Source: Minisyncoccota bacterium (GTDB taxonomy: Bacteria; Patescibacteriota; Minisyncoccia; UBA6257; GWB1-50-10). From it: a stretch of 64,000 nt of DNA. Location of the stretch: positions 38,490 through 102,489 of the forward strand of contig JAYRXE010000033.1 in assembly GCA_041917695.1 (NCBI GenBank). The letters are read 5' to 3'. Below, in pieces: positions 35,349-60,744 of the stretch; within the stretch, counting starts at the first letter, position 1, and every line of letters begins with the position of its first letter. A program made the position numbers and the translations under genes. The notes beneath the pieces are model-generated. The model was not told the DNA's origin, did no database searches, and saw only the letters and a program-made list of their open reading frames with translations.

Positions 35349-35400
35349 ACTGACTTCCGTTCCCCTTTGAAAGTTACGTTCTGAAAATTTGACCCTGGTT

Positions 35401-41339: not shown

Positions 41340-41390
41340 GAACTTACCTTTTTCTAAGTTATTGATTTCATTGGATTTTCTTGTAATCGT

Positions 41391-41442
41391 AAAACTGTCC
41401 TTTCTGTCAGTTTTTCAATAACTGACAGAAAGGACAGTTTTA
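41391..41442. promoter_or_regulatory. Perfect 22-bp inverted repeat with an 8-nt spacer. It is built from two repeat-family sites and may be an enhancer, a bidirectional terminator or an oriT.
   Basis: AAAACTGTCCTTTCTGTCAGTT-tttcaata-AACTGACAGAAAGGACAGTTTT. It sits between the 3' end of the giant gene and the secretin operon promoter. Confidence 0.8.
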
Positions 41443-41664
41443 CAGGGGCTAGATTCTTCACTTGAGACTCAAAAAAAGGGGTATCTAGGCTTTTTTTTCG
41501 GCCACCGGGTCAGGATGGAATTTGCCTTGTCGCCAGCTTATTTGGGTTCGTTCCTCGACGGTCTGAACGACATAAAGGACACCTGTTACCGCTGCTCGAC
41601 CTTGGTGAGAGCCATGACAACCGAGTCGTGTTCGGACTTTTTTCGCCCACCCCGCGCGCTTGAA

Positions 41665-44600
41665 CTACATACCCCAACCCAAATCATGAAAACTCGGTTT
41701 AGGTTTTTCTGTCTTTTTCTCCCGTTCAAACCGTGCCGGATAGTCTTGTGTTTCCACGCCGACGAGGGCCCCTGAAGTGGGTTTGAATTCTCCGTGACTC
41801 ACGCTCTCGCCCCGATAGATTGCGGCCTCGATCCGCTTCCTTCCGAAACCGGTATCGGCGAGAACTCCGGCAAGAGCTTCCGGACGAAGATGGTTCGATA
41901 CTTGCAAACCTGCCTGGCCGTTCAAGGTTTCGATCACCCGAATTTGTCCCGCCATCTTTTCCAGCATCGACGTTGCCTGGTTTCTCAGCTTGGTGAATTC
42001 CCCATAGGTCAGCTTTCCTTTCTGAGCGCTCTCGACGAAGTTTCGAGTCAGGTTTTTCACTTCCACCGGGGCTGGTTCCGCTTGAGTCTGGGGCGAAGCC
42101 AGTTCATCCAAAATCTCCTTGGTGACCACAAAGAGTTCCGCCGGCTTGATTGCCGCCAGCTTCTCCAGCACCCTGGCATGGACGGGAGCTTCCTCCATGA
42201 GGCTGATCTCCGACCGGCTCATACATGCCCGCGCGACCTTCTCGGTTCCCATCAAGGTTCGCGCGGTGGCTTGAATCCCGCTCGCAGGATCGCCGTTGTT
42301 GGCCCACTTCTTGAGCGCGGCGAGCGGGTCGCTTCCTTGTCGGGACAGGAGAATCCTTCCCTCGGCTTCCGATTTCGGAAGGGAGGTCACCCCTTGTTTA
42401 CAAAGAATATCGGCTGAACTTCGGGTGAGGGGAAGGTCGGCTACATCCGCCAATTTCCGGATCACCTGGCTGTTTTCACTGACCGGCGCTTTCGGGAACG
42501 CCTGCTGGAACTTGATGGCAGCCTTTTCTATCCGGTGGTTGATCTCATTGGCGACTTGTACCGCCACGGCCTTCCAGGTCTCGGTCGCTTCCGGCGAAAA
42601 TTCCCCCTCCGCCAGAACCCAACCCATTTCCTTGAGTGTTTTCGCGCAATGTTTCGGTGCGGTCGGGGCCACTCCGATCGCGTTCTCTATAGCGGTCGCC
42701 ATCCGGGATGCCATTGTCCGCCGTTCGTCCAGTTCCTTGGACATTTCTTGAAACGACTGGTGCCATTCCGATTCGAGGTTCTGGGCGGCTTCAATCTGGG
42801 CAGGCGTTTTTGCCGATTTCAAAAATGCTTCAATGTCTTTGCTTGACCACGGTCGTTGAGGACTGGTCAGAAGACCAAAAGCACCCTCAAGGTTACTCTG
42901 TACTTCTGGTTTGACCTGAATCAGGACCTCCGATTCGTTCAACTGGGAAACCAGGTAATCCCCGGTGAATCGGTTCGTTTCGCGCAGTGCTTCAAGCCGC
43001 CCGATAACCTCTTCAGGCATTTCCTGCTTGATGTCGATTTTCTGCGCCAACTTGTCAAACGCTTCGGAATCCTGTTTTTCAGCGGCATCCAAAAGCGTTC
43101 TGGCATACCGGCGGTTGAGTGGGTCGGCGCAGGATTCCAAAGCCGGATGGTAGGCCGGAGAATTCCAGCGAGTCGCAGTTTCCGCGGCTTTCAGCAACAT
43201 CTGGATTTCCGGCTCGGCTTCCTCTAGCTCTCTGGCGATCAGGACGTGACGGGCCAGCGCTTTCTCAATATCCAAACCTTGGGGCAAATCCCGCTCGACC
43301 GAAGCATCCGCGAAAGTGAAGACCTGCTCCCTGATTTCCTTTGGGGAAATAAAGTCGTTTCGGGTACGCATCCGGAATGATTGCCTGTCGATAATGTCGC
43401 TGCTCCGGGTTAAACGATTTTCCAGATCCCGCAAAACCGAAAAGGCCGGGTCACTCACCTTGAGGTTTGCAAGGTCGTTCCCAAATGCCTTGATATCCGA
43501 GTCTTCGGCCTCAACGTCTGTTTTGGTGAAAGTTTCTTCGCCTTCATAAACGATTGATTCTCTCTCCACGGTGATAATTACGCCGTCGCGCAGCACGTCG
43601 TAACCGGATTCCCGTAAAAATCCGCTCACGGCTTTGCCCATGCCGGTTCCGCTTGCCTGGTAGTACGTGGAAATTTCTGAAGCCGATGGGTTGGTTTTCG
43701 GATCGAAAACCCTTCTTGGCGAGAGAGCGACGAGACGGTAATCCTCTCCGTCAATCATATCCGAGGCATCCGTTATGACCCGGTATCCGAGCGGCCGATT
43801 GGGTCCAACATCGGCCTTGGGAACGATGACTCTTTCCACCGGGATTTGGAACGTCTCGGCTTTTTTCAATGCTCCAGCGTAGACGCTTTCAGGTTTCGCC
43901 CCGAGTTCAACCATCTGGCGTCGTAAGTCCAGAAGTGTTGCATGGGGATTGATGGAACTATTCCGACGCTCGAAATAGGCATCCATCTGTTCGAACGTCG
44001 CTGGCGCCTGTTCACGGCGGGTTCTGGACTCGTCGGCCAAAACAAACGGAAGTCGCTCTTTTTGAACCTCTGAAACTTGCGCGCCGGCTTTACTGAAGAA
44101 CGCAGTCAATTTTTCAGCGAGCCCCTCGAATTGAACTTCCCGAACCCGGTTCTCGATGACCGTCACCGGCATAAAGCCAACGATCAGTCCCTCATTTTCA
44201 GGGACCGCCGGTTCAACCGGGATCGGGGTGGTCTCCGCCGAAGTGCTGAAACTCCCATTGATCTCGCCTTCCGTGAATTGAACTGGTTGTTCAACGTCAC
44301 TTCTGGTTCGTTCCCCTTCCGTTTGGTTGGGAACAACCTCCAGGACTTTGGCGGTTTCGATGATTGATTGGGCCGAGACCGGAAGGACCTCTTTTCCAAG
44401 TTCCAGGGCGACCTCCGCCCCGAACACGAAGTTCTGCATCTCCGTCGCCTGACCATAGTTCTCATCCGCGAATCTGCATTCCCAGTTTCCGTTCAACCCT
44501 TCCAGTTGAACCGTCTCACCAACCTTGTTCGAATCCCGAACCTTTCCTCCGAGCAAGGTTTCAATTTCGTCAAAGGATTCCATCAAGGCCTCGTCGAGTC

Positions 44601-47600
44601 CTTCCCGTATCCGGAGTGCCTGAAGGGCAACCTGTTTGCCGGCGAGGGCGGTTTCCATGATTTGGCCTTCAAGTGGGCGGATGGTGACAAGTGCGTACCC
44701 CATCAGTGATTCATAAGGGTCGGCAAAATATTCTGTGACCGCCCCAAAAGTTGTGCCACGTTCGGTCCCGTAACCGGATTGACTGATGGCCCGGCCGGTT
44801 TCGTTCGCCTGCGCCCCGTCCAGCCCGATCTTGACGACATTTGCCACGAAGGTTTTTCCCGTCGGTGCGGGAGACAACTTCAACTGATCCTCCAGCCCTT
44901 GAATGGAATCCGGGTGGGAAAAATCACCGACCCCGATCAAAGCGCTATGCGTTTGGGGTGTCAGGAATTTGGCTATCCTTGCGGCGGTGCGCGAGTTCTC
45001 CAGGCTGTCATCAGAAATCATTTGAACCAGGATGATTTTTGAAACTCGAAATTCCTCGCTCTGACCTTCCGCGTGGATGAAATGGGCCGGCAGACCGGGT
45101 TCGACTTTTTCGACTTCTGGAGTTGCTGACTTGATTTCGGTTTCAACCCGAACTTCTCGCGCATTCACTTCCGACACATCGAGCCTGTTTGCGGGGGCTG
45201 CGCTCGTTTCTCCGACTGGTGGCACCAAGCCGTTCTTGAATGCCTCGATGGTGACGAACGATTCCCCCTCGAACATCCACCTGGCCGACCATCCGGATTT
45301 GTAATCCACGGCGGTCCGGGTCTGATTCACACGACCGAATTTTTCCCGAGTCGTGTCGGTGATGAAATCATAGACGCTCTTGTGAACCACGTAGCGCTGG
45401 AGACCTGAATAAGCCGAATCTCGGCTCTCTCCAAGCAAAATTCGGAGATTTTTATCAGGGCTTTCAAGCACGACCAGGTTGGTTCGTTGCTGCGAAGGCG
45501 TTTGACTGCTGATCTCCGGTTCGGGTTCAATTCCCGAATTCGGCGACCTGCTTTCAAGCAATGTGGTCAGTGGAGCTTCGACTCCTTGAGGCCCAGGCGT
45601 TTCTTTTACCCGAGTCACGTTTTCACTTACTGGGGCGACAGGTTCTGCGGGGGTGGTCTGAACCGGTTCCAAATCGTCTGAAACATCCGACGCCTGTCCG
45701 GCCTTCTCACGCCTGACCTTTTCCACGAAATTCCGATAAAGGCTCGTCGTCAACCCCGTTCGATATACATTCTCCACATAGTCTCTCCCGTTGTACCGGG
45801 CAATTTTTGCTTGACCATCCAGTTCCGGGCGTTTGTCACCCCGTTTATTGATTTGGATTTTCAGCTCGCTCAATTCGTTTCGAGCATCTTCAAGCTCTTG
45901 GGACTGGGGAAACTCTTTCAAACGGGTAATCGTTTCGTCGCCATTCTGGATTTCCTCGTAGATGGCAGATCGAAGCGTATCCCGCCGCCGTTCAAATACG
46001 TCTTTCATTGAGGCATTTTTTTCGAGTTCACGCTTGATGGCCGTCAGTTCGAGGTTGGCAATCCTGAACAGTTCTTCCGGTTGTTCCTGGTTAAAGATGA
46101 GATGCCGTTGCCGGCCCTCAAAGTCGATGACGAGGATTCTTTGGGGGAGTTCAAGTGCGTACTCCTCGATACTGGCAATTCGTCCTCCCCGATACTTCCC
46201 GATCAAGACGAACCCCGACTCATTGCGTAAAACGGCCTGGCTTTGACGTTCGACGATGTAGGCCCCGGCTTCTTTCTTGTTTGACATGACTTCCCCATCG
46301 GGAAGTGAGAACTCGAATTCCTTGGTTTCCGATTCGTCGATCAATCTGGTCAATTCATTGAGCCGCGTGCCCTTTTCTCCCAGATCACGTAGCTCACGTT
46401 CCGCACTGGCAATCTCCCATTGGGTTGTGGATCGCCATCGGTTAAACGCTTTGGCCTTTCTTTCCAGTGCCTCGACCTCGACCTGCTTCTCGTGGGCTTG
46501 GAGAGCGAGGGTATCCCGGCTGGCGATAGCCGCAATTTGCTCGGCGGTCAGGTCATCTTCAGAAACGTCAAACGTCATTGGCGCGTTTTCGACATCCGAC
46601 CTGACCCATCCCATGAACTCACTGATGATTTCCGACTTGTTGCCAAGGTATTTTGCAAAGAAGTCGTCAACCCCTTCCTTGACGACGCGAACTACCTGTA
46701 CCGCTTCGTTCTCATTCCCCGGACGTACTCCCCGACCGACGCATTGAATTTCGTTTCGGGGCGTATATCCGTTGTGAAGGAGATACTGGGCAATGACCTT
46801 CTTTTGAACGTTTGTTCCGGTTCCCAATCTTGCGGTTGATCCTATGGCAACAATGGCGTCACCATCATTCAGGCGCTGTTGCGCGCGGATCCGCTCTTCG
46901 TCGCCCGTAATGTTTGAAAAATTGAGGACCTTGTTTTTCGGGATGCCTTTCTGCTCCAGGAGGCGGATCAGATCCTCGACCGCGCTGATGCCTTTCTGAT
47001 TGGGATGGACTCCGAAATCGGTGAAAACCAGTTGGACCTTGTTCGGGTATTCCGACGCCATCGAGACAATCATGTCGGCGGTCATTTCAATTTTCCCATT
47101 CGGGTTGGGAATGATGTCGTCCCGATACAGCAGGTTCGTATGCACCGAAATCTGCTTTAACTCATTCACCAGCCGCATGCGCTCACCGGTTGTATCCCTG
47201 CCCAAATTTCTTGCCTTTTGAGCAATTTCATTCAAGAGGAATTCCTCGTACTCGGTAATGGGGGATACCGCAACGATGGTTTGAGCCTTGGGTGGGTTCA
47301 GGTCGGCAGCCGTGCCGGGGCCGAAAGTGACAAACGATTTTGCCCAACGAACGAGGTCCGGAATCGAGTCATACCCACGAACCCTGGTCTGGACCTTCAT
47401 CCCGTCCATCGTTCGTTCGAGCCGCCCTGAAACCCGAAGGAAGTTATTGACGAAGCCCTGAAGGTTGTCGGCCCCAGGGGGCATCATGTCGAGCATTTTC
47501 CCCCAATTGAAAATTTCTACCGCGGTATTCACGATGGGGGTCGCGGTCATCAGGACGGTTCTGTGATTTGCCCCTCCTTCAACACATTGGCGGTACAGGA

Positions 47601-50600
47601 TCGACATTTTCATCCTGAAATCGACGGCCATATCCGAGCCGGTTCCATCGGGAACACCCTTGATACTCCGGACGGCCGAAGAGGCATCTGGATGAGCCAT
47701 CCCCCGTACTTTGTCGTCCACTTCGTCGGCAATAAACGCGATGTTTTCCCGTCCGATCAGACGTTCCCACGTCAACATCTTTGATCCGATCCGGCTGTCT
47801 TTGACGATGCCCTCAAGGTATTGGGTCCTTTCAAGAGCAATGTATTTGACGGCCGAAACGATTTGTTCTTCAGCTTGACTGGAAACCTGTTTGGCATTGA
47901 GCCTTGCATCCTCCCTGGGAGCGCCCGACCATTTGATTTCCGGGCAGGCAAGTTTCATCTCCGAAACTTTGGAATAAGCGATCTTACCGATTTCCCCATT
48001 CCTGTTTTCCGACGACAGGATTTCTTTCAATTCGTGTTCGGCGGCCGAAACAATCTCGTTGGCCACGGCTTTCGCCCGGTTCTCATACGACTCCAGAGCA
48101 ACTTTGATGATGGATTGCTGTTCCGGTTCGAACTGGTACAGGTTGTCCTTGACGGCATCGAAGTATCTTTGGGAGATCCTGGCCTCAATCTCCGCCATTT
48201 TTCGTTCCAACTGTTTGGTCCTGAACTTTGAACCGGTTTCCAGTTCTTCATGGTAGGCCTGTCGCACCCGCTCGATTTCGTCCTGGACGATGCGGGTGAA
48301 ATTTTCCGGGTGAATCGGAATCCGTGAAAAGTCCTCATACGTCATTACGACAAAGTCGAAATCATTCGTCAGTCCCCGCATCAAGGTCGCATGTTTTGCC
48401 GTCCAATCCGTCAAACCGGAGGTGGTCAGGATGCGTTTACCGGGGAAAAACCGCTGAATTTCGCCAACGAACTGGGCAAGGTTGGTCTTTTTGCAGACGA
48501 TGATCCCTTTCTCCACGGCTCCGATTTCTTGCAGTTTCGAAACCGTCAACGCCGCCAATCCGGTTTTCCCGCCACCGACATCCCGGGTGACGAGGGAAGC
48601 CCGGCGATGGAGGATTTCCTGCACGACCGGGAGTGTCCAGGCCCGCGGGTCGATATCAGTTGCCAGCCCCGCGAAGGTCATCCCTTCACCGGTGAATTTT
48701 GGTTGTACAATGCTGTTCATCGTCGAGTTGTAGATCTGCTCGATGACGGTTCGCCGGTTGACGATTTCCTCATTCGTCCCCATGACTTCTCGGGTCTCAC
48801 CGGATTCGCCCGTCCAGATCCAGCGGGCGAACCACTCGTTGGCTTTCTCGATTTTGACCTCGATATCAGCCATTGCGGCTTCGTTGATTTCCCCGTCTTC
48901 GTTTTTGATGACAATCTGTTTGGCATTGAAAGCGGCTTCGAGAACCGCGTCCCAACCGGCTTCATCTGTTCCAAAAGCTAACTTCAGGTCCGAATGAGAA
49001 CTAAAACCAAGCAACCGGCTATCGACGGACCATTCACCGCTATGCGGGTTTCGACTGATTTCAATCGTTTCCCGATCTACCTTTCCGGTTATGGAATTGT
49101 ATTTCTTGTGGATCGCCTCGAAGATAAACCGTTCAAAGTACTCGGTCGGAATAAACGGTTTGCCCAACCTGACAGGAATCTCGTCGTAGTGGCGCCAAGG
49201 GGGAAGCACTCCCTTCAATGCTTCAACGTTCGCCTCGAATTCGGGCATGGTTCTGGCTGAGAATTCCGCCTGCTTGAGTTTCTCCCGGACATTTCCCGAC
49301 AGATATTCGACGGAGGTCACCAAACTCCGATTCAATGGGTCACGGAAGGCAAGTTTTCGGTCCAGGAGTTCCGCCAGAACCTCACCTTCGGACAATCCGA
49401 GTTGCTTTCCGATGGTTGCCGGGTCGAGTTTTTGCCGGGTATTGATGGCTTCGAGCACGGCGTTTTCGACGTTGGCGATTTTGCCTTTTTCGAACCTCCT
49501 CGAAACTGGTCCTTTGAGTATCCCGGCTTCCTTACCCTCCGATTCGAGGCTCATCAGGAGAGAACGATCCGGATGCCAACTCATCAGCAACAGGTTCTGC
49601 TTTGTGTTCAGGCGACCCCGCGCGGATACGAAATTCCGATACTCGTTCTGAAGTTTTTGTCGTTCGGACTCGGCTTCCGGTAAACCAAGTTCGTCCAGTT
49701 GGTAGACTTGCCGCAACGTATTGGCAAGCTCGCTCAATTTTCCAATCCGAACCACCTCTTCTCGGGTAACCGTTTTCTTTTCGAGTCCGTTCTTTCCAAT
49801 GACCAGGAGATGATCGGTCGCAATTTTGCCCTGGACTCCGAATTCATTTGTAACCCGGTACAAGGTCCCCCCTTCAACCAGATAGGGAAGGGACGGTTCT
49901 TCGAGAATCACTGGCGGTCGTTTGGGAATCGACGAGTCGCTCACCGAGTTTTGCAGCGCCGGGACCTTCTCAACCGCCTTCTTCAGCGCGTCGCGTAATT
50001 CGCCTTGACCTTCCACGATCAGATCATATCCGTGCATTCCGTGGCCAAGTCTTTTGTCTCCCAGAATCTGATCCGGGTTATCCAGGAAATACTGGTTGAT
50101 GTAGCGGTCGGCAAGTTCTTCGCCGTTTACCTCAAGGCGTTGGGTTGTCAACCAGGATGACTCGATCTTCTCGATGCCTGGGCCACGTTTTTGGAAAATC
50201 AGAATGTCCGTGATGACCTGCGTCCCTGCATTTTTCTGAAATGCCCCCGATGGCAGGCGGAATGCCTTCACGAGATTAGCCCGGTCCTCCACCCACTGCC
50301 GGAATTTCTGATCGACCTTGTCCATGAAATACCGGGAATTAACCAGGATCATCACGCCTCCCGGCCGCATTTCATTGATCGCTTTTGCCATGAACACTTC
50401 ATGGTTCGGGCATTTGGAAACGACTGGGTCACTGGCAAACATCGGCGCAAAAAGCCGACCAGTTCCAAAAGGAGGGTTCCCTATCACGATGTCATAATAA
50501 TCCGTCGGCAGATTTGCCGTCCCGTAATTCCCCTTGTGGATGATGTCTTTAGGGAACAGGTAACTGGCAATTTCCTGGCTCAGGCTGTCGAGTTCGACCC

Positions 50601-53600
50601 CTTCCCGAATGCTTTTTTCTTGAATCGCCTCGGGGGCGGTCGCAAACAGCACCCCGTTTGCGCCGATTGAAGGCTCAAGGATCCGGGGGGTATCGACCGA
50701 TGTGATGCCTGTCTTCTCAAGCATGGCCCACATCGCCCGAGCCACCTCCGGATGGGTGTACATCGCATTCACATGAGAGCTTCTGGCCGATGCGAATTCT
50801 TCCGGAGTCAGGTAGTTCTGAAGCTCACGGCTCTCTTTTTTCCATTCACCGCGACCGGTGAACAATTCGCTCGGAAAGGCCCCGAAGCCCGGAAACAAGG
50901 AAAGGACCCGCTGCTGATCCGCCGTTGCCTCAACTCGACCATCGGCTTCAAGACTCAATGCGCGAAGCTCATTCAGAACCTTCAGCGATTCAATCAGGTT
51001 TCGAAACCGAACCTTTGGGGTGTACTCGAAATCTTCACTCTCAGGCAGCCGGTAATTCGTGTTCCCGCTGCCAAGGAAACGAACTTCAGTCGCTTGAATG
51101 TCGATCACCGGGGGGCCTTCGACCGCCGGGATGACATCAGCCAATGACGGTTTTTCCACCTCCCCCCGTCGGTAATTTCCCGTGATCGACGTGTCTTGTG
51201 AGCCGGTGAATTGAGCGATGGCATTTTCAACAACGCCTTCTTGGGAACTTTCTTGGTTTCGATTCATTGCTGGTTTCTCCGTCTTCAGGTCGGGATTATT
51301 TTGTTGCGGGTCGTCGGGTGACAATCTGATTGTCTGAAATGGCTCGTAAAGGATTCCGATTTTGGCGGTATTGGGTGTCTTAACCCCAGTCTTTCCCATC
51401 AGATAGACGTGCCAGTCGATCATTCTGTGGGGGCGATTCAAGGTTTTTCGAACCAGTTTCCAAAGTGGGAGTTGACCGTGTTCCTCTTTCAATTCATCCC
51501 GCATTCGTTTGGATTGGGTAAACAGGCGGTACAGTCCTTCTGGGCTGTTGACGAATCTTGTCAGCTTTCTGAGATACGCCCGGTCATCGCGATACAACTC
51601 CTCGGGCGGAACCGATTTCCCCTTGAGCGATTGTGACTTGGCCCATTCGTCAGCTTTCTTGTCGGTCCACACTTCACGGAAGTCTTTTCGAAGTTCTTCC
51701 TGCTGCGATCTGATTCGGCGCAGCTTCTCGGCTTCTTCGGGGTTTTCGGGTTCGTTCCCGCCATCCTTTCCCGAAAATGCTGGGGTTGTTTTGTCCCCGT
51801 GGACCCGGTAATCGTCATCCTTGAAATAGTCGAGTTCGAGGTATTCGATACCTTTCCGCATGATCCTGTCGGTCAGTTCCCAGGAACCGACCTCGGAGAT
51901 TGTCTGCCGAATCACTTCTTCGATGGCACCCCAATTGAAACGCTCTTTCCCTCTGGCCATTGTCAAGGCTTTGTCGATGGTGAACTTGAGCCAATCATTT
52001 TGATCCCACTCGGGACGAACCCTTTTCGATTGCCGCATCAGTCGTTCGATTTGCACGGCATCATCGGAGTAGAAGGCGAGCTTCCTCGCCAACAAGTAGT
52101 CCCCGTACCCAGGTGGCGCCGGCTGGCTTGGTTCAGTGGAGGGTTTCCCCTCCTTCGTTTTTACCCGTTTGACCCCGGCCTCGCCATTCCACAGTCTGAC
52201 GACGTGGTTCGGGTCAGCCTCGATTTCTTCCGGTTCTGCGTAGCCCGCAAGCTTGTTGAGGATGCGTCGGTCGGTAATGTCGAAGAGGCTTGATTCAAGA
52301 TTGGATTTCCCGCTCGAACCCTCGAATTCATCCTCCAACTCAAGAAAGTCATTGGGGTCCGTGAGGTCGAAAGGCGCTTCGTCGTGCCACGCCGGTGGGG
52401 ACGCTGCGCCATCGTCAACCGGCTCTTGAAAAAAAGGGTTCTGATCCGCTTCCTCACGGGCATTCGAGGGAGACACACCTTGCGACGCATCGGCCTTGAA
52501 ATTCCGGTTCGAACCAACGGTTGCGGGGGGTGCTCCGGATAGCGCCGATTCCGGCTTTTCAGCCTTTGGGTGACCAACCTCGGTTTTCGGTTTGAGAACC
52601 TTCGACCAGTCGAAAAAGACATTCTTTGTTCTCAAGACATAGCTGATGGTGTACTCGCCAAACGATTGGCCCGCACCACTGCCAACCGAGCGATCCCATT
52701 TGGGACGCATTCTTCCCGAATTTCGGAAAATACGATCAATCTGGGTGCGATCCTGAGTGTAGAACGCCAACATGCCGACAAAACGAACATCGTTCGTGCT
52801 GACATCCTCCGCCCCACTCGAATCCCGATATGGGTTACCGCCCCCATATAAATCGAGGAATTTCCCTCCGTCCCTGGTTTTCAGGAGTCGGTCAATAACC
52901 ATCTCGTCCGTGATGGTATCCCCGATGACCGAACCACTCTTTCTCTCGGGTAATGCGACGGATGGGCGATTTTGGGTTTCGGCCTGGATCTCCGGCCTTT
53001 TCAGATATGTCTCGTAAAGCCAGTGCAGGCCCGCCACACTTTCAGTCGGCTCCAATTCGGTACCAGGTAACCGGTTTCCAGTCACGGTCAAGTACCTTGG
53101 GCTTCGCCAGTCGTACACCTCAATCCAGGAAAATTCATCTTTTCCTTTTCCGCGATGGATGGCTTCTCCAATAACAAATCCCCGGAGACCTTTCCCTGAA
53201 GGTGAAATTTCCCAGTACCCGCCAAGTCGAGTGACGATATCCTTTGCAACTTGATTGATCTCGCCGGTGTCGGGATTCAGACACTTGTCTAGGTCGATAC
53301 CGACGAGGTTGTCGCCCTGACGAAGTTGAAAGCTCAGGCCACCTATTTTTTCGAGAATCTGGTTTTTCAGCGCATGGTAGTAAGTTGGGTTCTTTTCGCG
53401 TCCTTCAACAAACTGGACAGCCTTTTCAAAGCTGTTCCAGTCACCTGGCTGATTTGACCTCGCCTTCATCCAGTTTTTAGCGACATTGAAGGCAATTTTG
53501 GTCGGTTTGGGGATCTTGCTGTCGTAACTCATGCCGCGAACCCAGCCGTTCCACTGGGTCAGCAACTTCAATGTTTCAGGAATGTATTGAGGAAAATGCG

Positions 53601-54396
53601 GTCGTCCCTGAGCTTCGAGCCGGAGATGTGTATCCAGCCGGTCGGGGTTTTCGATTCCGAACCAATTGCTTCGTTCGTCGCGTGTTGCATCCCGGAGATC
53701 CTTATTCGAACTGATGAGGATGACTTGGCTGGCCCCGCCTTCATCGTCCGTATACTTGGTCACCCGGTTGAGGATTTGCTCCAAGGGATTTTGAGCGGCG
53801 TCACTGGCGACAACGAAGTTTGGTAACTCCTCGATGTTTCGAATGATCCAGCCCAGTTGTTCCAGCTTTTCCCTACGAACCTTTTGCAGGTCGATGTCCT
53901 GATCCAGGAAGATGAACTTTTTCGAATTTCCTGGGGTGTTTCTGGCTGGCGATTCTTGCCCGAATCCATCCAAAAACAGTTCAGCAATCTCTGAAGGCCG
54001 GTCTCCCTGATTGTGAAAGCTTTGTCTTGAGAGCCCGCGAGAACCCCCATCTTTCATGCGGTAGGTGATATGGATATGAGGGTTGTCCGTATCCCGGTGG
54101 ATACTGGCGTGCCATTCAAGTTCAACTCCGAAGTAATTTTCGACCAAGGGCATGCTGCCCCGGATTCCGAATCTCAGAGACTCGTCCTGTTCAACGTCAT
54201 TCTTTCCAAGTTCTTTGAGGTCGGCGTGAGACTTGAAGGACAAGACCATTTCAAAAGCGTTTGTCCAGGTTTCATCAATGTCGAGGGGAAGTACGGATGC
54301 TGTTTCATTGAAGGGAGAACTTCGAGTGCTCCCTCCGCTACCGACATACTTGCCTCTCCCAGTCACCGGTCCAGTGCTGACAACAACGAATTCCAT
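41665..54396 (-). CDS. Giant 4243-aa multidomain protein with MobA/MobL-like relaxase, PrimPol, three PriCT-like motifs, N6-adenine DNA methyltransferase, SNF2-like helicase and a ~1600-aa unknown C-terminus (DarB-like architecture)
   Basis: Relaxase motif III WHASIHRDTDNPHIHI at ~54070-54120. PrimPol NLVGIDLDKC...EISPSGKGLRGF at ~53280. Methyltransferase motif I ILEPSIGANGVLF and motif IV IVIGNPPFG at ~50470. Helicase Walker A DVGGGKTG at ~48570, DEVDD, motif VI QCVGRGVRPG at ~46740. RBS AGGGTG, start 12 nt after the VirB6-like stop. Confidence 0.85.
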   Translation of the reverse strand: MEFVVVSTGPVTGRGKYVGSGGSTRSSPFNETASVLPLDIDETWTNAFEMVLSFKSHADLKELGKNDVEQDESLRFGIRGSMPLVENYFGVELEWHASIHRDTDNPHIHITYRMKDGGSRGLSRQSFHNQGDRPSEIAELFLDGFGQESPARNTPGNSKKFIFLDQDIDLQKVRREKLEQLGWIIRNIEELPNFVVASDAAQNPLEQILNRVTKYTDDEGGASQVILISSNKDLRDATRDERSNWFGIENPDRLDTHLRLEAQGRPHFPQYIPETLKLLTQWNGWVRGMSYDSKIPKPTKIAFNVAKNWMKARSNQPGDWNSFEKAVQFVEGREKNPTYYHALKNQILEKIGGLSFQLRQGDNLVGIDLDKCLNPDTGEINQVAKDIVTRLGGYWEISPSGKGLRGFVIGEAIHRGKGKDEFSWIEVYDWRSPRYLTVTGNRLPGTELEPTESVAGLHWLYETYLKRPEIQAETQNRPSVALPERKSGSVIGDTITDEMVIDRLLKTRDGGKFLDLYGGGNPYRDSSGAEDVSTNDVRFVGMLAFYTQDRTQIDRIFRNSGRMRPKWDRSVGSGAGQSFGEYTISYVLRTKNVFFDWSKVLKPKTEVGHPKAEKPESALSGAPPATVGSNRNFKADASQGVSPSNAREEADQNPFFQEPVDDGAASPPAWHDEAPFDLTDPNDFLELEDEFEGSSGKSNLESSLFDITDRRILNKLAGYAEPEEIEADPNHVVRLWNGEAGVKRVKTKEGKPSTEPSQPAPPGYGDYLLARKLAFYSDDAVQIERLMRQSKRVRPEWDQNDWLKFTIDKALTMARGKERFNWGAIEEVIRQTISEVGSWELTDRIMRKGIEYLELDYFKDDDYRVHGDKTTPAFSGKDGGNEPENPEEAEKLRRIRSQQEELRKDFREVWTDKKADEWAKSQSLKGKSVPPEELYRDDRAYLRKLTRFVNSPEGLYRLFTQSKRMRDELKEEHGQLPLWKLVRKTLNRPHRMIDWHVYLMGKTGVKTPNTAKIGILYEPFQTIRLSPDDPQQNNPDLKTEKPAMNRNQESSQEGVVENAIAQFTGSQDTSITGNYRRGEVEKPSLADVIPAVEGPPVIDIQATEVRFLGSGNTNYRLPESEDFEYTPKVRFRNLIESLKVLNELRALSLEADGRVEATADQQRVLSLFPGFGAFPSELFTGRGEWKKESRELQNYLTPEEFASARSSHVNAMYTHPEVARAMWAMLEKTGITSVDTPRILEPSIGANGVLFATAPEAIQEKSIREGVELDSLSQEIASYLFPKDIIHKGNYGTANLPTDYYDIVIGNPPFGTGRLFAPMFASDPVVSKCPNHEVFMAKAINEMRPGGVMILVNSRYFMDKVDQKFRQWVEDRANLVKAFRLPSGAFQKNAGTQVITDILIFQKRGPGIEKIESSWLTTQRLEVNGEELADRYINQYFLDNPDQILGDKRLGHGMHGYDLIVEGQGELRDALKKAVEKVPALQNSVSDSSIPKRPPVILEEPSLPYLVEGGTLYRVTNEFGVQGKIATDHLLVIGKNGLEKKTVTREEVVRIGKLSELANTLRQVYQLDELGLPEAESERQKLQNEYRNFVSARGRLNTKQNLLLMSWHPDRSLLMSLESEGKEAGILKGPVSRRFEKGKIANVENAVLEAINTRQKLDPATIGKQLGLSEGEVLAELLDRKLAFRDPLNRSLVTSVEYLSGNVREKLKQAEFSARTMPEFEANVEALKGVLPPWRHYDEIPVRLGKPFIPTEYFERFIFEAIHKKYNSITGKVDRETIEISRNPHSGEWSVDSRLLGFSSHSDLKLAFGTDEAGWDAVLEAAFNAKQIVIKNEDGEINEAAMADIEVKIEKANEWFARWIWTGESGETREVMGTNEEIVNRRTVIEQIYNSTMNSIVQPKFTGEGMTFAGLATDIDPRAWTLPVVQEILHRRASLVTRDVGGGKTGLAALTVSKLQEIGAVEKGIIVCKKTNLAQFVGEIQRFFPGKRILTTSGLTDWTAKHATLMRGLTNDFDFVVMTYEDFSRIPIHPENFTRIVQDEIERVRQAYHEELETGSKFRTKQLERKMAEIEARISQRYFDAVKDNLYQFEPEQQSIIKVALESYENRAKAVANEIVSAAEHELKEILSSENRNGEIGKIAYSKVSEMKLACPEIKWSGAPREDARLNAKQVSSQAEEQIVSAVKYIALERTQYLEGIVKDSRIGSKMLTWERLIGRENIAFIADEVDDKVRGMAHPDASSAVRSIKGVPDGTGSDMAVDFRMKMSILYRQCVEGGANHRTVLMTATPIVNTAVEIFNWGKMLDMMPPGADNLQGFVNNFLRVSGRLERTMDGMKVQTRVRGYDSIPDLVRWAKSFVTFGPGTAADLNPPKAQTIVAVSPITEYEEFLLNEIAQKARNLGRDTTGERMRLVNELKQISVHTNLLYRDDIIPNPNGKIEMTADMIVSMASEYPNKVQLVFTDFGVHPNQKGISAVEDLIRLLEQKGIPKNKVLNFSNITGDEERIRAQQRLNDGDAIVAIGSTARLGTGTNVQKKVIAQYLLHNGYTPRNEIQCVGRGVRPGNENEAVQVVRVVKEGVDDFFAKYLGNKSEIISEFMGWVRSDVENAPMTFDVSEDDLTAEQIAAIASRDTLALQAHEKQVEVEALERKAKAFNRWRSTTQWEIASAERELRDLGEKGTRLNELTRLIDESETKEFEFSLPDGEVMSNKKEAGAYIVERQSQAVLRNESGFVLIGKYRGGRIASIEEYALELPQRILVIDFEGRQRHLIFNQEQPEELFRIANLELTAIKRELEKNASMKDVFERRRDTLRSAIYEEIQNGDETITRLKEFPQSQELEDARNELSELKIQINKRGDKRPELDGQAKIARYNGRDYVENVYRTGLTTSLYRNFVEKVRREKAGQASDVSDDLEPVQTTPAEPVAPVSENVTRVKETPGPQGVEAPLTTLLESRSPNSGIEPEPEISSQTPSQQRTNLVVLESPDKNLRILLGESRDSAYSGLQRYVVHKSVYDFITDTTREKFGRVNQTRTAVDYKSGWSARWMFEGESFVTIEAFKNGLVPPVGETSAAPANRLDVSEVNAREVRVETEIKSATPEVEKVEPGLPAHFIHAEGQSEEFRVSKIILVQMISDDSLENSRTAARIAKFLTPQTHSALIGVGDFSHPDSIQGLEDQLKLSPAPTGKTFVANVVKIGLDGAQANETGRAISQSGYGTERGTTFGAVTEYFADPYESLMGYALVTIRPLEGQIMETALAGKQVALQALRIREGLDEALMESFDEIETLLGGKVRDSNKVGETVQLEGLNGNWECRFADENYGQATEMQNFVFGAEVALELGKEVLPVSAQSIIETAKVLEVVPNQTEGERTRSDVEQPVQFTEGEINGSFSTSAETTPIPVEPAVPENEGLIVGFMPVTVIENRVREVQFEGLAEKLTAFFSKAGAQVSEVQKERLPFVLADESRTRREQAPATFEQMDAYFERRNSSINPHATLLDLRRQMVELGAKPESVYAGALKKAETFQIPVERVIVPKADVGPNRPLGYRVITDASDMIDGEDYRLVALSPRRVFDPKTNPSASEISTYYQASGTGMGKAVSGFLRESGYDVLRDGVIITVERESIVYEGEETFTKTDVEAEDSDIKAFGNDLANLKVSDPAFSVLRDLENRLTRSSDIIDRQSFRMRTRNDFISPKEIREQVFTFADASVERDLPQGLDIEKALARHVLIARELEEAEPEIQMLLKAAETATRWNSPAYHPALESCADPLNRRYARTLLDAAEKQDSEAFDKLAQKIDIKQEMPEEVIGRLEALRETNRFTGDYLVSQLNESEVLIQVKPEVQSNLEGAFGLLTSPQRPWSSKDIEAFLKSAKTPAQIEAAQNLESEWHQSFQEMSKELDERRTMASRMATAIENAIGVAPTAPKHCAKTLKEMGWVLAEGEFSPEATETWKAVAVQVANEINHRIEKAAIKFQQAFPKAPVSENSQVIRKLADVADLPLTRSSADILCKQGVTSLPKSEAEGRILLSRQGSDPLAALKKWANNGDPASGIQATARTLMGTEKVARACMSRSEISLMEEAPVHARVLEKLAAIKPAELFVVTKEILDELASPQTQAEPAPVEVKNLTRNFVESAQKGKLTYGEFTKLRNQATSMLEKMAGQIRVIETLNGQAGLQVSNHLRPEALAGVLADTGFGRKRIEAAIYRGESVSHGEFKPTSGALVGVETQDYPARFEREKKTEKPKPSFHDLGWGM

Positions 54397-56411: not shown

Positions 56412-57551
56412 CTAGCGAGGACCAAGTGCGGGCGCGCTCGGTGCGTCGGGAAGCTCGCTCGGGCCTTCCATGACTGCTCGAAACGCTTTGTCGGCGTCCG
56501 CGTCGAGTTGGCCCATCAACTGTCCCCAGGCTTTCTGGTTCTCGTCGATCTCTTTGCCGGTCTGCATCATGTATTCAAACTTGACCCGGTTTGCGGCGTA
56601 CAATTCGGCTATTTCCTTGAGTTTGTCAGCGATGTCCGCTTTCAGGCCGACTTCCTGGGCCTCAAGCACATCCAGCCGCTTTTGCAGTTCACGCATTCCT
56701 TCCTGGTCTTGTGTCTGAGCGGTCACCGGTGGCGTGTCAGTTGGGGTACTTCCATCTGGAGCAGGTGTACCCACGCCGACCGAATCACCACTCATCCGGG
56801 TCATTTCTTCTTTGCACCGTTTGATCTTCTCCCGGACGTACGCGATTTGCGCGTTCAGGTCTCCATACCTTTCCCAAAGGAGTGCCATTTTCGGGTCTCT
56901 TTCGAGCATGACCCGGCGTTTCTGCTCGGCGGCATATTCTTGGCGGTAAACCCGGTCCATAAAATCGGTCAGGATTGACCATGCTTCACGAGGATTGAAA
57001 GAACTCCCCATGTTGCGTATCCGATTCAAAGTGTCGATGACCGCCCAACGGGTGTTCCACAGTTGCACTCCGGAGGTGTAGAGCTGGCGAGCGGCCTCGA
57101 TGTGGCGAAACCATTTCAGCAAATTTGCTCGGGTTTTTTCATCCAGTCCGAACCGTGCCGCCGTATATTGGTAAATCCCTCGCAGCGTGGTCAGTTGTTG
57201 CACCAACTTTGTGTATTGGGTGATGTGGGCGGTCCAGCTTTGGATTCTGAAAGCCCATTGTTCAGCCAGTTGTTTGTTCCCAATAGCGTTTGCTTCCTTG
57301 GTCGCTTCTTTTATTTTTTCGAGTTTTTCGTTCGTGCTGTCGGCTTTGTCGTTTGCTTTGGCAAGCTTGTCATTTGCCTTGTCGAGCGCCCCGCCCATGT
57401 TTTTGTCAAATGCTTTGACGGCCGTCAGCAATGCCACTCCATCAAAAATGGCTGGTACTTTTTCGGTAAACAACGCTCCCGAGGGGAGGGGCCCGGCGAC
57501 CCAAAACGCACAAAAGGCTGCCATTACGATTGTCTGTACCATTTTTTTCAT
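56412..57551 (-). CDS. TrbJ/VirB5-like secreted coiled-coil protein
   Basis: Signal peptide MKKMVQTIVMAAFCAFWVAG, extended coiled-coil. Position between the VirB4 and VirB6 homologues. Confidence 0.4.
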   Translation of the reverse strand: MKKMVQTIVMAAFCAFWVAGPLPSGALFTEKVPAIFDGVALLTAVKAFDKNMGGALDKANDKLAKANDKADSTNEKLEKIKEATKEANAIGNKQLAEQWAFRIQSWTAHITQYTKLVQQLTTLRGIYQYTAARFGLDEKTRANLLKWFRHIEAARQLYTSGVQLWNTRWAVIDTLNRIRNMGSSFNPREAWSILTDFMDRVYRQEYAAEQKRRVMLERDPKMALLWERYGDLNAQIAYVREKIKRCKEEMTRMSGDSVGVGTPAPDGSTPTDTPPVTAQTQDQEGMRELQKRLDVLEAQEVGLKADIADKLKEIAELYAANRVKFEYMMQTGKEIDENQKAWGQLMGQLDADADKAFRAVMEGPSELPDAPSAPALGPR

Positions 57552-60420: not shown

Positions 60421-60744
60421 TTGTTCTTGTATCCAGTTTCTTGGCTTGATTTGGTTTGGTCGGTCGAATTGCTTCGGCGAAACCAGGTAACGGAAGAAAT
60501 GGTGAGCAAACCGTCTGGGTTTCCCAATCCTTGCCCATGCAAAAAATCCGGAAACCCCGCAGAAACTCCCGATGGCAACCAGATACCAGGCCGGAAATCC
60601 TGCCACCATCGTTCGAGCAAACCAGAAGGGAAGCGTGACCAGAAAGGTCAGGATCAGGACGATTGGCCAATCCTCAATGGCTACGCCAAAACGAATCACC
60701 GGTTGGAAGATCATCGGTCGAACAGGGTACGTTGGTTTTGACAT
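60418..60744 (-). CDS. VirB3/TrbD-like small membrane protein
   Basis: 108 aa with two TM helices (WPIVLILTFLVTLPFWF, LVAIGSFCGVSGFFAW). Sits between the pilin and VirB4. Confidence 0.6.
   Translation of the reverse strand: MSKPTYPVRPMIFQPVIRFGVAIEDWPIVLILTFLVTLPFWFARTMVAGFPAWYLVAIGSFCGVSGFFAWARIGKPRRFAHHFFRYLVSPKQFDRPNQIKPRNWIQEQ

What the first reader, a model, noticed from the sequence alone, without database searches (positions are those of the whole stretch)
41665..54396. 4243-aa fusion of relaxase, PrimPol, N6-methyltransferase and SNF2 helicase (DarB-like) inside the VirB operon
One 12.7-kb ORF fuses six parts. The first is a MobA/MobL-type relaxase motif III (HRDTDNPHIH, near the N-terminus). 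The second is a PrimPol domain (GIDLDKC...EISPSGKGL). The third is three repeats of a ~60-aa primase-C-like motif. The fourth is a gamma-class N6-adenine methyltransferase (motif I ILEPSIGANG, motif IV NPPF). The fifth is an SNF2/DEAD-like helicase (GGGKTG, DEVDD, QCVGRGVRPG). The sixth is ~1600 aa with no recognisable motif. The methyltransferase-helicase half recalls phage P1 DarB, a packaged anti-restriction protein. The relaxase-primase half recalls RSF1010 MobA/RepB'. The combination, sited between VirB6 and a secretin operon, suggests a pilot protein that nicks oriT, travels with the DNA, primes complementary-strand synthesis and methylates it in the recipient. I do not recognise this architecture as described.
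Basis: partly seen in the sequence, partly recalled or inferred. Interest (0 to 1): 0.85.

Follow-up and report, generated by a model that had tools for sequence, protein, structure and literature searches.

The report
Giant relaxase-headed anti-restriction transfer protein
A real 4,243-residue gene joins a DNA-nicking relaxase and a primase-polymerase to the known DarB-like methylase-helicase core of "polyvalent" proteins, and it sits in an unusual gene cluster that mixes conjugation-type and type IV pilus-type parts.

Summary

Tools support these domains:
- an N-terminal HUH/3-His relaxase of the MOBL/MOBQ/MOBP cluster (Y17, H100/H107/H109);
- an NrS-1-type PrimPol;
- two solid helix-bundle (HBD) repeats and one degenerate one;
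- a DarB-like N6-adenine methylase plus SNF2 ATPase dyad;
- an orphan C-terminal ~1,400 aa.

The methylase-helicase core, with or without PrimPol, is not new. It is the hub of the "polyvalent proteins" of phages and conjugative elements (Iyer et al. 2017). It occurs in about 2,000 plasmid records and in many phages, where it is annotated "DarB-like antirestriction".

Two things are new. First, the relaxase head: none of the other 110 core homologues retrieved has it. Only a 45%-identical syntenic homologue from the same sample and a third giant (5,396 aa) from another sample share it. Second, the setting is not a canonical VirB operon. It is a sigma-54-controlled cluster with a divergent VirB4/TraC-like ATPase and membrane proteins upstream, and a PilQ/PilB/PilC/PilT-type pilus module downstream. 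The same order is kept in three loci.

Best reading: a relaxase-piloted polyvalent protein that enters the recipient with the DNA. This is a new variant of a known kind. The mechanism is inferred, not shown.

The parts
41665..54396 (-). Whole ORF, 4,243 aa plus stop codon: relaxase-headed polyvalent protein
   Evidence: Identical protein P0001 is in public assemblies. 45%-identical full-length homologue P0002.
53947..54396 (-). Residues 1-150: HUH/3-His relaxase domain. Candidate catalytic Y17 is at 54346-54348; the His triad H100/H107/H109 lies within 54070-54099.
53617..53925 (-). Residues 158-260: small alpha/beta (Rossmann/HAD-like fold) domain of unknown role between the relaxase and PrimPol
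52987..53604 (-). Residues ~265-470: archaeo-eukaryotic primase-type PrimPol catalytic domain (DxD 368-370, SPSGKGLR 398-405, WIEVYD 424-429)
   Evidence: phmmer against PDB hits the NrS-1 primase-polymerase (7rr3, 6a9w, 6k9a) at E 2e-15 to 4e-15. tblastn to plasmid PrimPols reaches down to E 1e-32. R instead of H in motif II is the majority state in the closest PrimPol-helicase relatives: 79 R against 32 H.
52639..52809 (-). Residues 530-586: NrS-1-type helix-bundle domain (HBD), copy 1
   Evidence: Pfam PF22763, E 4.6e-24. Own HMM, E 1.9e-24.
51967..52101 (-). Residues 766-810: HBD copy 2
   Evidence: Second Pfam stretch. Own HMM, E 7.6e-13.
51472..51588 (-). Residues 937-975: degenerate HBD-like copy 3
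   Evidence: Own HMM gives only 10.4 bits (E 1e-4 in a search of 4 sequences). The equivalent in P0002 is marginal at E 0.13.
46297..51099 (-). Residues 1100-2700: DarB-like dyad of an N6-adenine methyltransferase (motif I 50653-50682, NPPF 50467-50478) and an SNF2-type ATPase (motif I 48559-48576, DEVDD 47713-47727, motif VI 46717-46746)
   Evidence: 110 polyvalent-type homologues besides P0001/P0002, at E 1e-20 to 1e-124, carrying PF28553/PF28554/PF28555, SNF2 and Helicase_C; some are named 'N12 class adenine-specific DNA methylase'. Phage 'DarB-like antirestriction' proteins match at E 1e-77 to 1e-95. 2,014 plasmid records match. Motifs are conserved in P0002 (NPPY, GGGKT, DEVDD).
45847..46296 (-). 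Residues 2701-2850: charged helical region after the helicase, still shared with P0117
   Evidence: BLASTP of P0001 residues 2211-2849 against P0117 residues 1989-2645, E 1e-78.
41668..45846 (-). Residues 2851-4243: orphan C-terminal region. Mixed alpha/beta modules are followed by about 500 aa that are all helical.
   Evidence: Conserved only in P0002 at about 30-40% identity. No Pfam or NCBIfam hit. No homologue found. Not similar to the C-terminus of P0117. AF2 mean pLDDT is 35.7, so the model is unusable.
54409..56385 (-). Upstream neighbour, 658 aa: signal peptide plus about 6 TM segments (VirB6-like topology only)
   Evidence: Hydropathy. No family or PDB match. Syntenic in L002 and L003.
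56412..57551 (-). 379-aa secreted coiled-coil protein
57548..60421 (-). 957-aa divergent VirB4/TraC-like ATPase (Walker A GETGSGKS)
   Evidence: NCBIfam TraC-F-type E 3.9e-9 and VirB4_CagE E 2.5e-8, both far below cut-off. tblastn 3e-15 to 'TraC family protein' of a Myxococcus plasmid. Weak Pfam hits to DUF87, P-loop_TraG and AAA_10.
60762..61184 (-). 140-aa protein with a long leader and two hydrophobic segments (VirB2/TrbC-pilin-like by topology only)
   Evidence: No family hit.
61190..61205 (-). Sigma-54-type -24/-12 promoter-like site (TGGCACACAACTTGAT), preceded by two tandem 28-29-nt repeats at about 61253-61309
61305..63845 (-). Sigma-54-dependent transcriptional activator (bEBP)
   Evidence: Pfam Sigma54_activat, E 2.5e-64. 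Syntenic in L002 and L003.
41389..41443 (.). 27-nt near-perfect palindrome about 50 nt upstream of a sigma-54-like site (TGGCACGCGGTTTGTC, 41324-41339, minus strand). Probably an activator binding site for the pilus operon rather than an oriT.
   Evidence: Related half-sites lie upstream of the other two sigma-54-like sites. L002 has an analogous palindrome plus TGGCAC-N5-TTGC at the same place.
28482..40520 (-). Type IV pilus-like module: PilQ secretin (38703-40520), PilO-like (35401-35979), PilB/GspE-like ATPase (32895-35348), PilC/GspF platform (31663-32937), PilT-like ATPase (28482-30254), plus uncharacterised ORFs
   Evidence: Pfam. NCBIfam: PilQ E 2e-64, PilC E 4e-35, pilT_fam E 4.5e-56, GspE/PilB E 1e-30 to 1e-34.

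Best explanation
The ORF encodes a relaxase-headed polyvalent protein of a rare, undescribed family of transfer elements.

Shown by sequence and structure comparison: from N to C it carries (1) a MOBL/MOBQ/MOBP-type HUH relaxase, (2) a small alpha/beta domain, (3) an NrS-1-type PrimPol with two to three helix-bundle domains, (4) a DarB-like N6-adenine methyltransferase coupled to an SNF2-type DNA translocase, and (5) a lineage-specific C-terminal region.

Inferred mechanism: in the donor, Y17 of the relaxase cuts one strand at a still unidentified oriT and stays covalently bound to the 5' end. The protein is exported with the single strand through the element's own machine, which combines a VirB4-like ATPase and membrane proteins with a retractile type IV pilus and secretin module, all under one sigma-54 activator. 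In the recipient, the PrimPol primes complementary-strand synthesis. As duplex forms, the SNF2 motor moves the methylase along it, so the incoming DNA is protected in cis from restriction, as P1 DarB protects phage DNA. The relaxase finally rejoins the strand. Fusing the modules to the relaxase would ensure they arrive on the very DNA molecule they have to protect.
For: Relaxase:
- The closest relatives among 1.8 billion representatives are proteins with MobL/Relaxase domains.
- The profile hits PDB 'Relaxase' 9qq7 at E 2.9e-8.
- Tyr and the 3-His motif are invariant.
- The domain starts at residue 1, as in all relaxases (PMC5313138).

PrimPol: PDB NrS-1 at E ~1e-15; HBD at E 4.6e-24.

DarB-like dyad: with motifs kept in a 45%-identical homologue.

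Published concept: such dyads and PrimPols in conjugative elements are proposed to be delivered with the DNA and to act early in the recipient (PMC5512222).

Context: the gene is the last of a sigma-54-promoted unit that begins with a pilin-like protein and a VirB4/TraC-like ATPase. The order bEBP / small TM protein / VirB4-like / coiled-coil / polytopic / giant / secretin / PilB / PilC is kept in three loci whose giants are only 30-45% identical.
Against: - No oriT or nic site was identified. No non-coding sequence is conserved among the three loci.
- No type IV coupling protein, no VirB7-11 and no recognisable prepilin were found in the 64-kb window.
- The relaxase matches to curated models are below their cut-offs.
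- A 4,243-aa protein would have to be unfolded for export, and no processing protease domain was found.
- Whether the pilus module and the VirB4-like module work as one machine is unknown.
- Nothing about catalysis, transfer or methylation was tested.
Confidence: 0.6

Rival explanations
1. It is a donor-side replication/mobilisation protein only. The HUH domain would act as a rolling-circle Rep or a MobA-like nickase, and the PrimPol as the element's own replication primase (as in RSF1010 MobA/RepB' or PrimPol-helicase replication proteins). The protein would not be transferred.
For: The closest PrimPol relatives are PrimPol-helicase replication proteins of phages and plasmids. A shorter relaxase-PrimPol protein without the methylase-helicase part exists (P0115, 1,365 aa). 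No coupling protein was seen in the window.
Against: The DarB-like dyad is an anti-restriction module that only makes sense on DNA entering a new host. The gene is co-transcribed with VirB4-like and pilus genes rather than with partition or replication genes. The nearest HUH relatives are conjugative relaxases, not Rep proteins.
Confidence: 0.15
2. It is an ordinary polyvalent anti-restriction effector whose N-terminal relaxase-like domain is a non-catalytic relic or a DNA-end-binding or targeting module. The working relaxase would be encoded elsewhere on the element.
For: Curated relaxase models score below threshold. The domain is about 20 residues shorter between motifs I and II than its MobL-type relatives. 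Only 64 kb of the 120-kb contig were visible.
Against: The Tyr and all three metal-binding His are invariant across homologues down to 22-30% identity. The first 100 residues are among the better conserved parts of the protein (54% identity between P0001 and P0002). No other relaxase was found in the window.
Confidence: 0.12
3. It is a host defence or restriction-modification-like enzyme (methylase plus helicase) unrelated to DNA transfer.
For: PADLOC and NCBIfam give weak hits to type I/II methyltransferase and MADS methylase models. The left part of the window carries defence-type genes.
Against: Only the generic methylase fold matches. No nuclease or specificity subunit is present and no defence-system model matches the whole protein. 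The relaxase and PrimPol domains and the transfer-type neighbours do not fit a defence role.
Confidence: 0.04
4. It is an assembly or annotation artefact joining separate genes.
For: The length is extreme and the source is a metagenome or draft assembly.
Against: Two independent assemblies give the same protein. Two further uninterrupted homologues have the same domain order. Conservation runs along the whole length.
Confidence: 0.02

Closest known systems
Polyvalent proteins of phages and conjugative elements built on the DNA methylase - SWI2/SNF2 helicase dyad (Iyer, Burroughs, Anand, de Souza, Aravind 2017, PMC5512222)
   Same: It is a giant multi-domain polypeptide. The same adenine methylase plus SNF2 dyad is present (E down to 1e-124 to such proteins). 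A PrimPol with an accessory helical domain is fused in front, as in the Tn1549-like elements of Firmicutes and Fusobacteria (for example P0025 Eggerthia and P0040 Fusobacterium). It is encoded next to transfer genes.
   Different: It carries a relaxase as its first domain. The paper's relaxase mentions that I read (4 of 6) treat relaxase only as a separately transferred protein and a search seed. None of the other 110 core homologues has the 3-His motif. The paper found PrimPol-containing versions only in Firmicutes and Fusobacteria, whereas this host has a secretin and so is diderm. No peptidase, ART, ArdC or other typical hub domain was detected. The C-terminal 1,400 aa match nothing.
Phage P1 DarB and 'DarB-like antirestriction' proteins (e.g. 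Burkholderia phage Bcep22)
   Same: The methylase-helicase core aligns over 85-93% of 1,601 residues at about 26% identity (E 1e-77 to 1e-95). The presumed role is cis-protection of entering DNA from restriction.
   Different: DarB is a virion-packaged phage protein without relaxase or primase. Here there are no phage genes, delivery would be by a secretion machine, and attachment to the DNA would be covalent.
RSF1010/R1162 MobA-RepB' (MOBQ relaxase fused to a primase)
   Different: Sequence similarity to MobA is marginal (E 0.48 with the profile). The primase here is an NrS-1-type PrimPol with HBD. MobA is 709 aa and has no methylase or helicase.
MOBL relaxases (RelLS20 of pLS20; Pfam PF18555; PMC5313138)
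   Same: This is the best-scoring curated relaxase family. The HxxTDNPHxH motif III, the N-terminal Tyr motif and the 'hhhSh' motif II are shared. PDB 9qq7 'Relaxase' is hit at E 2.9e-8 by the family profile.
   Different: The score is below the Pfam cut-off (20.0 against 28.5 bits). The domain is about 20 residues shorter between motifs I and II. About 98% of MOBL relaxases are in Firmicutes (PMC5313138), and they are 400-1,000-aa proteins without these fusions.
Transferred plasmid primases Sog (R64) and TraC1 (RP4), and the R64 / PAPI-1-type conjugative type IV pili
   Same: The concept is the same: a primase travels with the T-strand and primes in the recipient (PMC5512222). A type IV pilus module is encoded beside conjugation genes.
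   Different: Those primases are Toprim-type and are separate from the relaxase. Those elements have complete T4SS sets with a coupling protein, while here only a VirB4-like ATPase is recognisable.

Membership tests
Polyvalent proteins with DarB-like methylase-SNF2 dyad | N6-adenine methyltransferase directly followed by a SWI2/SNF2-type ATPase in one polypeptide, homologous to DarB | tested here: met
   Motifs I/IV of the methylase and I/II/VI of the ATPase are present and conserved.
Polyvalent proteins with DarB-like methylase-SNF2 dyad | Several unrelated enzymatic domains combined in one giant protein | tested here: met
   Relaxase, PrimPol, methylase and ATPase.
Polyvalent proteins with DarB-like methylase-SNF2 dyad | Encoded by a phage or conjugative element next to packaging or transfer genes | tested here: met
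   VirB4/TraC-like ATPase three genes upstream in the same sigma-54-promoted unit. No phage genes. The transfer system itself is atypical.
Polyvalent proteins with DarB-like methylase-SNF2 dyad | Delivered into the recipient cell with the DNA | not testable with these tools
   Needs translocation assays.
HUH 3-His conjugative relaxases (MOBL/MOBQ/MOBP cluster) | Motif III HxDxxxxHxH (three metal-binding His) | tested here: met
   H100, H107 and H109 in HRDTDNPHIH. They are invariant in 13 sequences.
HUH 3-His conjugative relaxases (MOBL/MOBQ/MOBP cluster) | Motif I with catalytic Tyr near the N-terminus; relaxase domain at the extreme N-terminus | tested here: met
   Y17 is invariant and aligns with the Tyr motif of MobL-type relatives. 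The start codon position is conserved in P0002, P0115 and P0117. Catalytic use is not tested.
HUH 3-His conjugative relaxases (MOBL/MOBQ/MOBP cluster) | Relaxase (HUH) fold | tested here: met
HUH 3-His conjugative relaxases (MOBL/MOBQ/MOBP cluster) | Score above the curated cut-off of a relaxase family model | tested here: not met
   Pfam MobL 20.0 against 28.5 bits; Relaxase 14.2 against 24.6; NCBIfam MobP3 18.4 against 150. It is therefore a divergent relative and not a member of any curated MOB family.
HUH 3-His conjugative relaxases (MOBL/MOBQ/MOBP cluster) | Cognate oriT with nic site; site-specific nicking | tested here: inconclusive
   The inverted repeats found are better explained as sigma-54 activator sites. 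No non-coding block is shared by all three loci. Nicking is not testable here.
AEP-type PrimPol, NrS-1 polymerase-like | AEP motifs I (DxD), II (SxSGxGxH/R) and III, plus C-terminal helix-bundle domain | tested here: met
   PDB NrS-1 at E 2e-15. Pfam HBD at E 4.6e-24. Motif positions. R in motif II is the majority state in the clade.
VirB/Trb-type T4SS operon | VirB4 ATPase | tested here: inconclusive
   Significant but far below cut-off: 35 against 567 bits and 32.6 against 643 bits. tblastn 3e-15 to a TraC-family protein. No PDB sequence hit.
VirB/Trb-type T4SS operon | VirB6/TrbL polytopic protein recognisable by sequence | tested here: not met
   The 658-aa neighbour has about 6 TM segments but no match at E<=5 in Pfam, or in NCBIfam, PHROGs or PDB.
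VirB/Trb-type T4SS operon | Outer-membrane core (VirB7/9/10), VirB11 and coupling protein VirD4 | tested here: not met
   None was detected in the window. The only other P-loop ATPases are PilB-like and PilT-like, and the outer-membrane component is a PilQ-type secretin. The rest of the 120-kb contig was not visible.

The most novel reading that the evidence does not exclude
The three syntenic loci define an undescribed class of DNA-transfer element with two unusual features. First, the export machine would be a chimera: T4SS inner-membrane parts (pilin-like protein, VirB4-like ATPase, polytopic protein) combined with a retractile type IV pilus apparatus whose secretin replaces the VirB7/9/10 outer-membrane core. 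Second, the relaxase would be the leading domain of a 4,200-5,400-aa polyvalent protein threaded into the recipient while covalently attached to the DNA. That would be direct genetic evidence that polyvalent proteins are piloted in cis on the transferred strand.
Probability: 0.25. Interest if true: 0.85.

Novelty: new variant of a known kind. Interest (0 to 1): 0.58.

Why it matters
Polyvalent proteins are proposed, mostly from genomics, to enter the recipient with the DNA and act first. How those of conjugative elements are recruited to the secretion channel and kept on the right DNA molecule is unresolved.

A version whose first domain is the relaxase, the one protein known to be covalently bound to the transferred strand, suggests a simple answer and gives a testable system: Y17F and His-triad mutants, Cre-fusion transfer assays, and methylome analysis of transconjugants.

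The setting is also of interest. A VirB4-like ATPase and a PilQ/PilB/PilC/PilT module sit under one sigma-54 activator, with no recognisable coupling protein or VirB7-10 in 44 kb, and this layout recurs in three divergent loci. If it is a single machine, it would extend the known repertoire of mating-pair-formation types.

The finding is not a new enzymatic principle. Every catalytic module belongs to a known family.

Tried and rejected
- **C-terminal region (2851-4243).** The word-indexed homology search found nothing. AF2 on residues 2935-4134 with a two-sequence alignment gave mean pLDDT 35.7, so no fold search was attempted. Self-BLAST found no internal repeats.
- **Wider family search.** Scans of one genome per species (two scans), JGI metagenome contigs and IMG/VR, using N-terminal alignments, returned only ordinary short relaxases or nothing. 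The family appears rare. The organism could not be named, because cluster look-up gave no names. No tRNA or Rfam feature was found. The left 19.6 kb has no plasmid megablast match. The SRA run is not cited in the paper library.
- **oriT search.** The 27-nt palindrome downstream of the gene was first considered as an oriT hairpin. I rejected this in favour of a sigma-54 activator site, because related repeats precede all three TGGCAC-N5-TTG sites and L002 has its own palindrome in the same place. K-mer comparison found no non-coding block shared by all three loci.
- **Possibly inactive PrimPol.** The H-to-R change in AEP motif II was considered as a sign of inactivation. I rejected this because R is the majority residue in the closest PrimPol-helicase proteins.
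- **Defence-system reading.** Only generic methylase hits were found in PADLOC.
- **VirB6 identity of the 658-aa neighbour.** No sequence support in any library.
- **The Myxococcus plasmid with the best VirB4-like match.** It has a different gene context.
Full report

A single ATG-initiated ORF of 4,243 codons occupies window 41665-54396 on the minus strand.

The ORF is not an assembly artefact:
- The identical protein (P0001) is recorded from an NCBI contig of 120,489 bp and from an independently assembled Logan contig of run SRR26835159.
- A second protein from the same run (P0002, 4,237 aa) is 45% identical over 98% of the length. Identity is 21-79% in every 100-residue block and there are few gaps.
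- A third protein from another run (P0117, 5,396 aa) has the same domain order.
- The start codon is fixed by conservation. P0001, P0002, P0115 and P0117 all begin M-x-(x)-V-V-V, as do ordinary MobL-type relaxases.

**2. Domain by domain**

*Relaxase (residues 1 to about 150).*
- Curated models give only sub-threshold hits: Pfam MobL E 3.9e-4, 20.0 bits against a cut-off of 28.5; Relaxase E 0.054; NCBIfam MobP3, RlxS and MobP2.
- An exhaustive phmmer search of residues 1-260 against 1.84 billion representatives returned only 17 proteins at E<=1e-3. Of the 10 scanned, 9 carry MobL and/or Relaxase Pfam domains above the cut-off, and the tenth has a sub-threshold Relaxase hit.
- In a 13-sequence alignment, Y17, S53, H100, P106, H107 and H109 are invariant. 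These correspond to relaxase motifs I (Tyr), II (hhhSh) and III (3-His), as defined for the MOBP/Q/V/L cluster (PMC5313138).
- The profile of that alignment hits PDB entry 9qq7, deposited as 'Relaxase', at E 2.9e-8, and MobA 2ns6 weakly.
- I conclude that this is a genuine, divergent 3-His relaxase domain. It is about 20 residues shorter between motifs I and II than its relatives, and it cannot be assigned to a curated MOB family.

*PrimPol (about 265-470) and HBD repeats.*
- phmmer against PDB hits the NrS-1 primase-polymerase structures at E 2e-15 to 4e-15.
- tblastn finds plasmid PrimPols down to E 1e-32.
- Pfam finds the NrS-1 HBD at E 4.6e-24 in two stretches.
- An HMM built from 119 HBD segments finds three copies in P0001: 530-586 (E 2e-24), 766-810 (E 8e-13) and a weak 937-975 (10 bits). 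The third copy is marginal in P0002, and no copy was detected in P0117, which has a PriCT_2-like segment instead.
- Motif II has Arg where NrS-1 has His. Arg is the majority state (79 against 32) among the 120 best-scoring PrimPol relatives listed, most of them PrimPol-helicase proteins, so this is not a sign of decay.

*Methylase-SNF2 dyad (about 1100-2700).*
- The whole-protein search returned 110 further giant proteins (2,500-7,200 aa) that match about 8-25% of the query, most about 23%, at E down to 1e-124.
- These proteins carry PF28553, PF28554 and PF28555, plus SNF2, Helicase_C, Eco57I and many domains first defined in polyvalent proteins (PF18760, PF18763, PF18796, PF18798, PF18819, PF18823, PF18857, PF18858). 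Some sources name them 'N12 class adenine-specific DNA methylase'.
- Against annotated phages, the core aligns over 85-93% of 1,601 residues with 'DarB-like antirestriction' proteins at E 1e-77 to 1e-95.
- Against plasmids, it matches 2,014 records, of which 701 are typed conjugative.
- Methylase motifs I and IV and ATPase motifs I, II and VI are intact and conserved in P0002.

*C-terminus (2851-4243).* This region is conserved only in P0002. It is unrelated to the C-terminus of P0117, has no family hit and no homologue. It could not be modelled (pLDDT 35.7). It is a lineage-specific extension, as is usual in polyvalent proteins.

**3. Surroundings**

All genes from 63845 down to 19624 are on the minus strand. 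In order they are:
- a sigma-54 activator (61305-63845, E 2.5e-64);
- a 140-aa protein with a long leader and two hydrophobic segments;
- a 957-aa divergent VirB4/TraC-like ATPase (NCBIfam E 3.9e-9 and 2.5e-8; tblastn 3e-15 to a Myxococcus plasmid 'TraC family protein');
- a secreted coiled-coil protein of 379 aa;
- a 658-aa protein with a signal peptide and about 6 TM segments;
- the giant gene, starting 13 nt after the stop codon of the 658-aa ORF;
- an 830-bp spacer;
- a PilQ-type secretin, a PilO-like protein, a PilB/GspE-like ATPase, a PilC/GspF platform protein and a PilT-like ATPase, with several orphans between them.

No coupling protein, VirB7-11 homologue or canonical prepilin motif was found in the window.

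Three TGGCAC-N5-TTG sites lie on the coding strand, at 61190-61205, 41324-41339 and 27158-27173. Each is preceded at about 45-60 nt by related repeats of the type CTGTC/GAC-N-TTT-N-GWCAG. The striking 27-nt palindrome at 41389-41443 is one of them. L002 has a different palindrome followed by TGGCACGCTGGTTGCC in the same position, and in L003 a sigma-54-like site lies directly in front of the giant gene. I therefore read these repeats as binding sites of the cluster's own activator, not as oriT.

The gene order is the same in L002 and L003. Both continue the same order as far as the sequence retrieved (to the PilB-like gene in L002, to the PilC-like gene in L003). Identities are 62% and 34% for the VirB4-like protein and 56% and 31% for the polytopic protein.

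**4. How it most likely works**

*Shown.* The protein combines a relaxase, a PrimPol and a DarB-like methylase-translocase. It is encoded with, and probably co-transcribed with, a VirB4-like ATPase, next to a pilus module.

*Inferred.* The inference rests on established knowledge of relaxases, of the transferred primases Sog and TraC1, and of P1 DarB, as summarised in PMC5512222.
- The relaxase nicks oriT and becomes the covalent pilot of the T-strand.
- The rest of the polypeptide follows into the recipient.
- The PrimPol primes the complementary strand.
- The SNF2 motor carries the methylase along the new duplex and protects it from restriction.
- The relaxase then recircularises the strand.

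*Weak points.* oriT is unknown, no coupling protein has been seen, the protein is very large, and there is no experimental test. I put the probability at about 0.6.

*Rivals.*
- A donor-only Rep/Mob-primase role (0.15).
- A non-catalytic relaxase relic with the real relaxase elsewhere (0.12).
- A defence enzyme (0.04).
- An artefact (0.02).

**5. Comparison with what is known, and novelty**

The protein meets the defining features of polyvalent proteins built on the methylase-SNF2 dyad. PrimPol fusions to that dyad are already described, but only in Tn1549-like elements of Firmicutes and Fusobacteria.

What I did not find described:
- A relaxase domain inside such a protein. The paper's relaxase mentions that I read (four of six) use it only as a separate transferred protein and as a search seed. 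None of the other 110 core homologues has a 3-His motif. A full-text search for relaxase + PrimPol + SNF2 + methyltransferase + conjugative returns only that paper.
- A cluster that combines VirB4-like and PilQ/B/C/T-type genes with a relaxase. The literature search found nothing of this kind.

The family is rare. It comprises three giant clusters plus one shorter relaxase-PrimPol protein among 1.8 billion representatives. It is absent from the species-representative genomes, JGI contigs and IMG/VR at the sensitivity of the pattern scans.

Verdict: the feature is real and the domain calls are correct. The protein belongs to a known class, with a new and mechanistically suggestive head domain and an unusual genomic setting. 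It is a new variant of a known kind, of moderate to high interest.

Noticed in passing
window 61190-61309, 41324-41443, 27158-27275 (minus strand): Three sigma-54-type -24/-12 sites, each about 45-60 nt downstream of related repeats (tandem 28-29-mers, a 27-nt palindrome, and an inverted pair). They divide the 44-kb cluster into three units, apparently driven by the activator encoded at 61305-63845.
   Followed up: partly
L002 (SRR26835159) and window: The same sequencing run holds two copies of this roughly 40-kb cluster. They are only about 45-62% identical at protein level and have different activator-site palindromes. They could be two compatible relatives in one community or in one genome.
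   Followed up: partly
L003 9948-26191 (SRR29398968): The third family member (P0117, 5,396 aa) has its own sigma-54-like promoter directly upstream. It has a PriCT_2-like segment instead of HBD repeats, an extra region of about 300 aa between the primase and methylase, and a 2,750-aa C-terminus unrelated to that of the window protein.
   Followed up: partly
window 40903-40919 (minus strand) and L002 23040-23056: A 17-nt block, CAAAAGATAACTTTTTT (itself a small palindrome), is identical in the otherwise diverged spacer between the sigma-54 site and the secretin operon. Its function is unknown; it could be regulatory or a candidate nic region.
   Followed up: no
window 53617-53925 (residues 158-260 of the giant): A small alpha/beta domain with a HAD/Rossmann-like fold lies between the relaxase and PrimPol, and it is conserved in the family. 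No catalytic motif is conserved.
   Followed up: partly
window 19624-23490 (minus strand): A 1,288-aa protein with five BACON repeats lies at the distal end of the cluster. It may be a surface adhesin of the transfer or pilus system.
   Followed up: no
window 1-19000: This is a mosaic, GC-heterogeneous (0.32-0.61) island of mobile and defence-type genes. It contains a truncated Tn3-family transposase (2019-4079), a tyrosine recombinase (6990-7973), a metallophosphatase-STAND NTPase matching the PADLOC candidate PDC-S60 (9338-12508, E 1e-69), a fragment with only the HsdM N-terminal domain (12737-13900), TniB (14080-14859) and an ExoI/SbcB-SUKH fusion matching a DRT-associated model (16018-17931).
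   Followed up: partly
L018 729-4826 (P0115, SRR27730048): This 1,365-aa protein has the same relaxase, alpha/beta domain, PrimPol and HBD head but no methylase-helicase part. It may represent the ancestral relaxase-primase module onto which the DarB-like dyad was added.
   Followed up: partly
window 25412-26506 and 26938-27120 (minus strand): The third sigma-54 unit starts with a 60-aa TM peptide and contains orphan proteins of 364 and 297 aa. No replication or partition function could be assigned to anything in the cluster.
   Followed up: no
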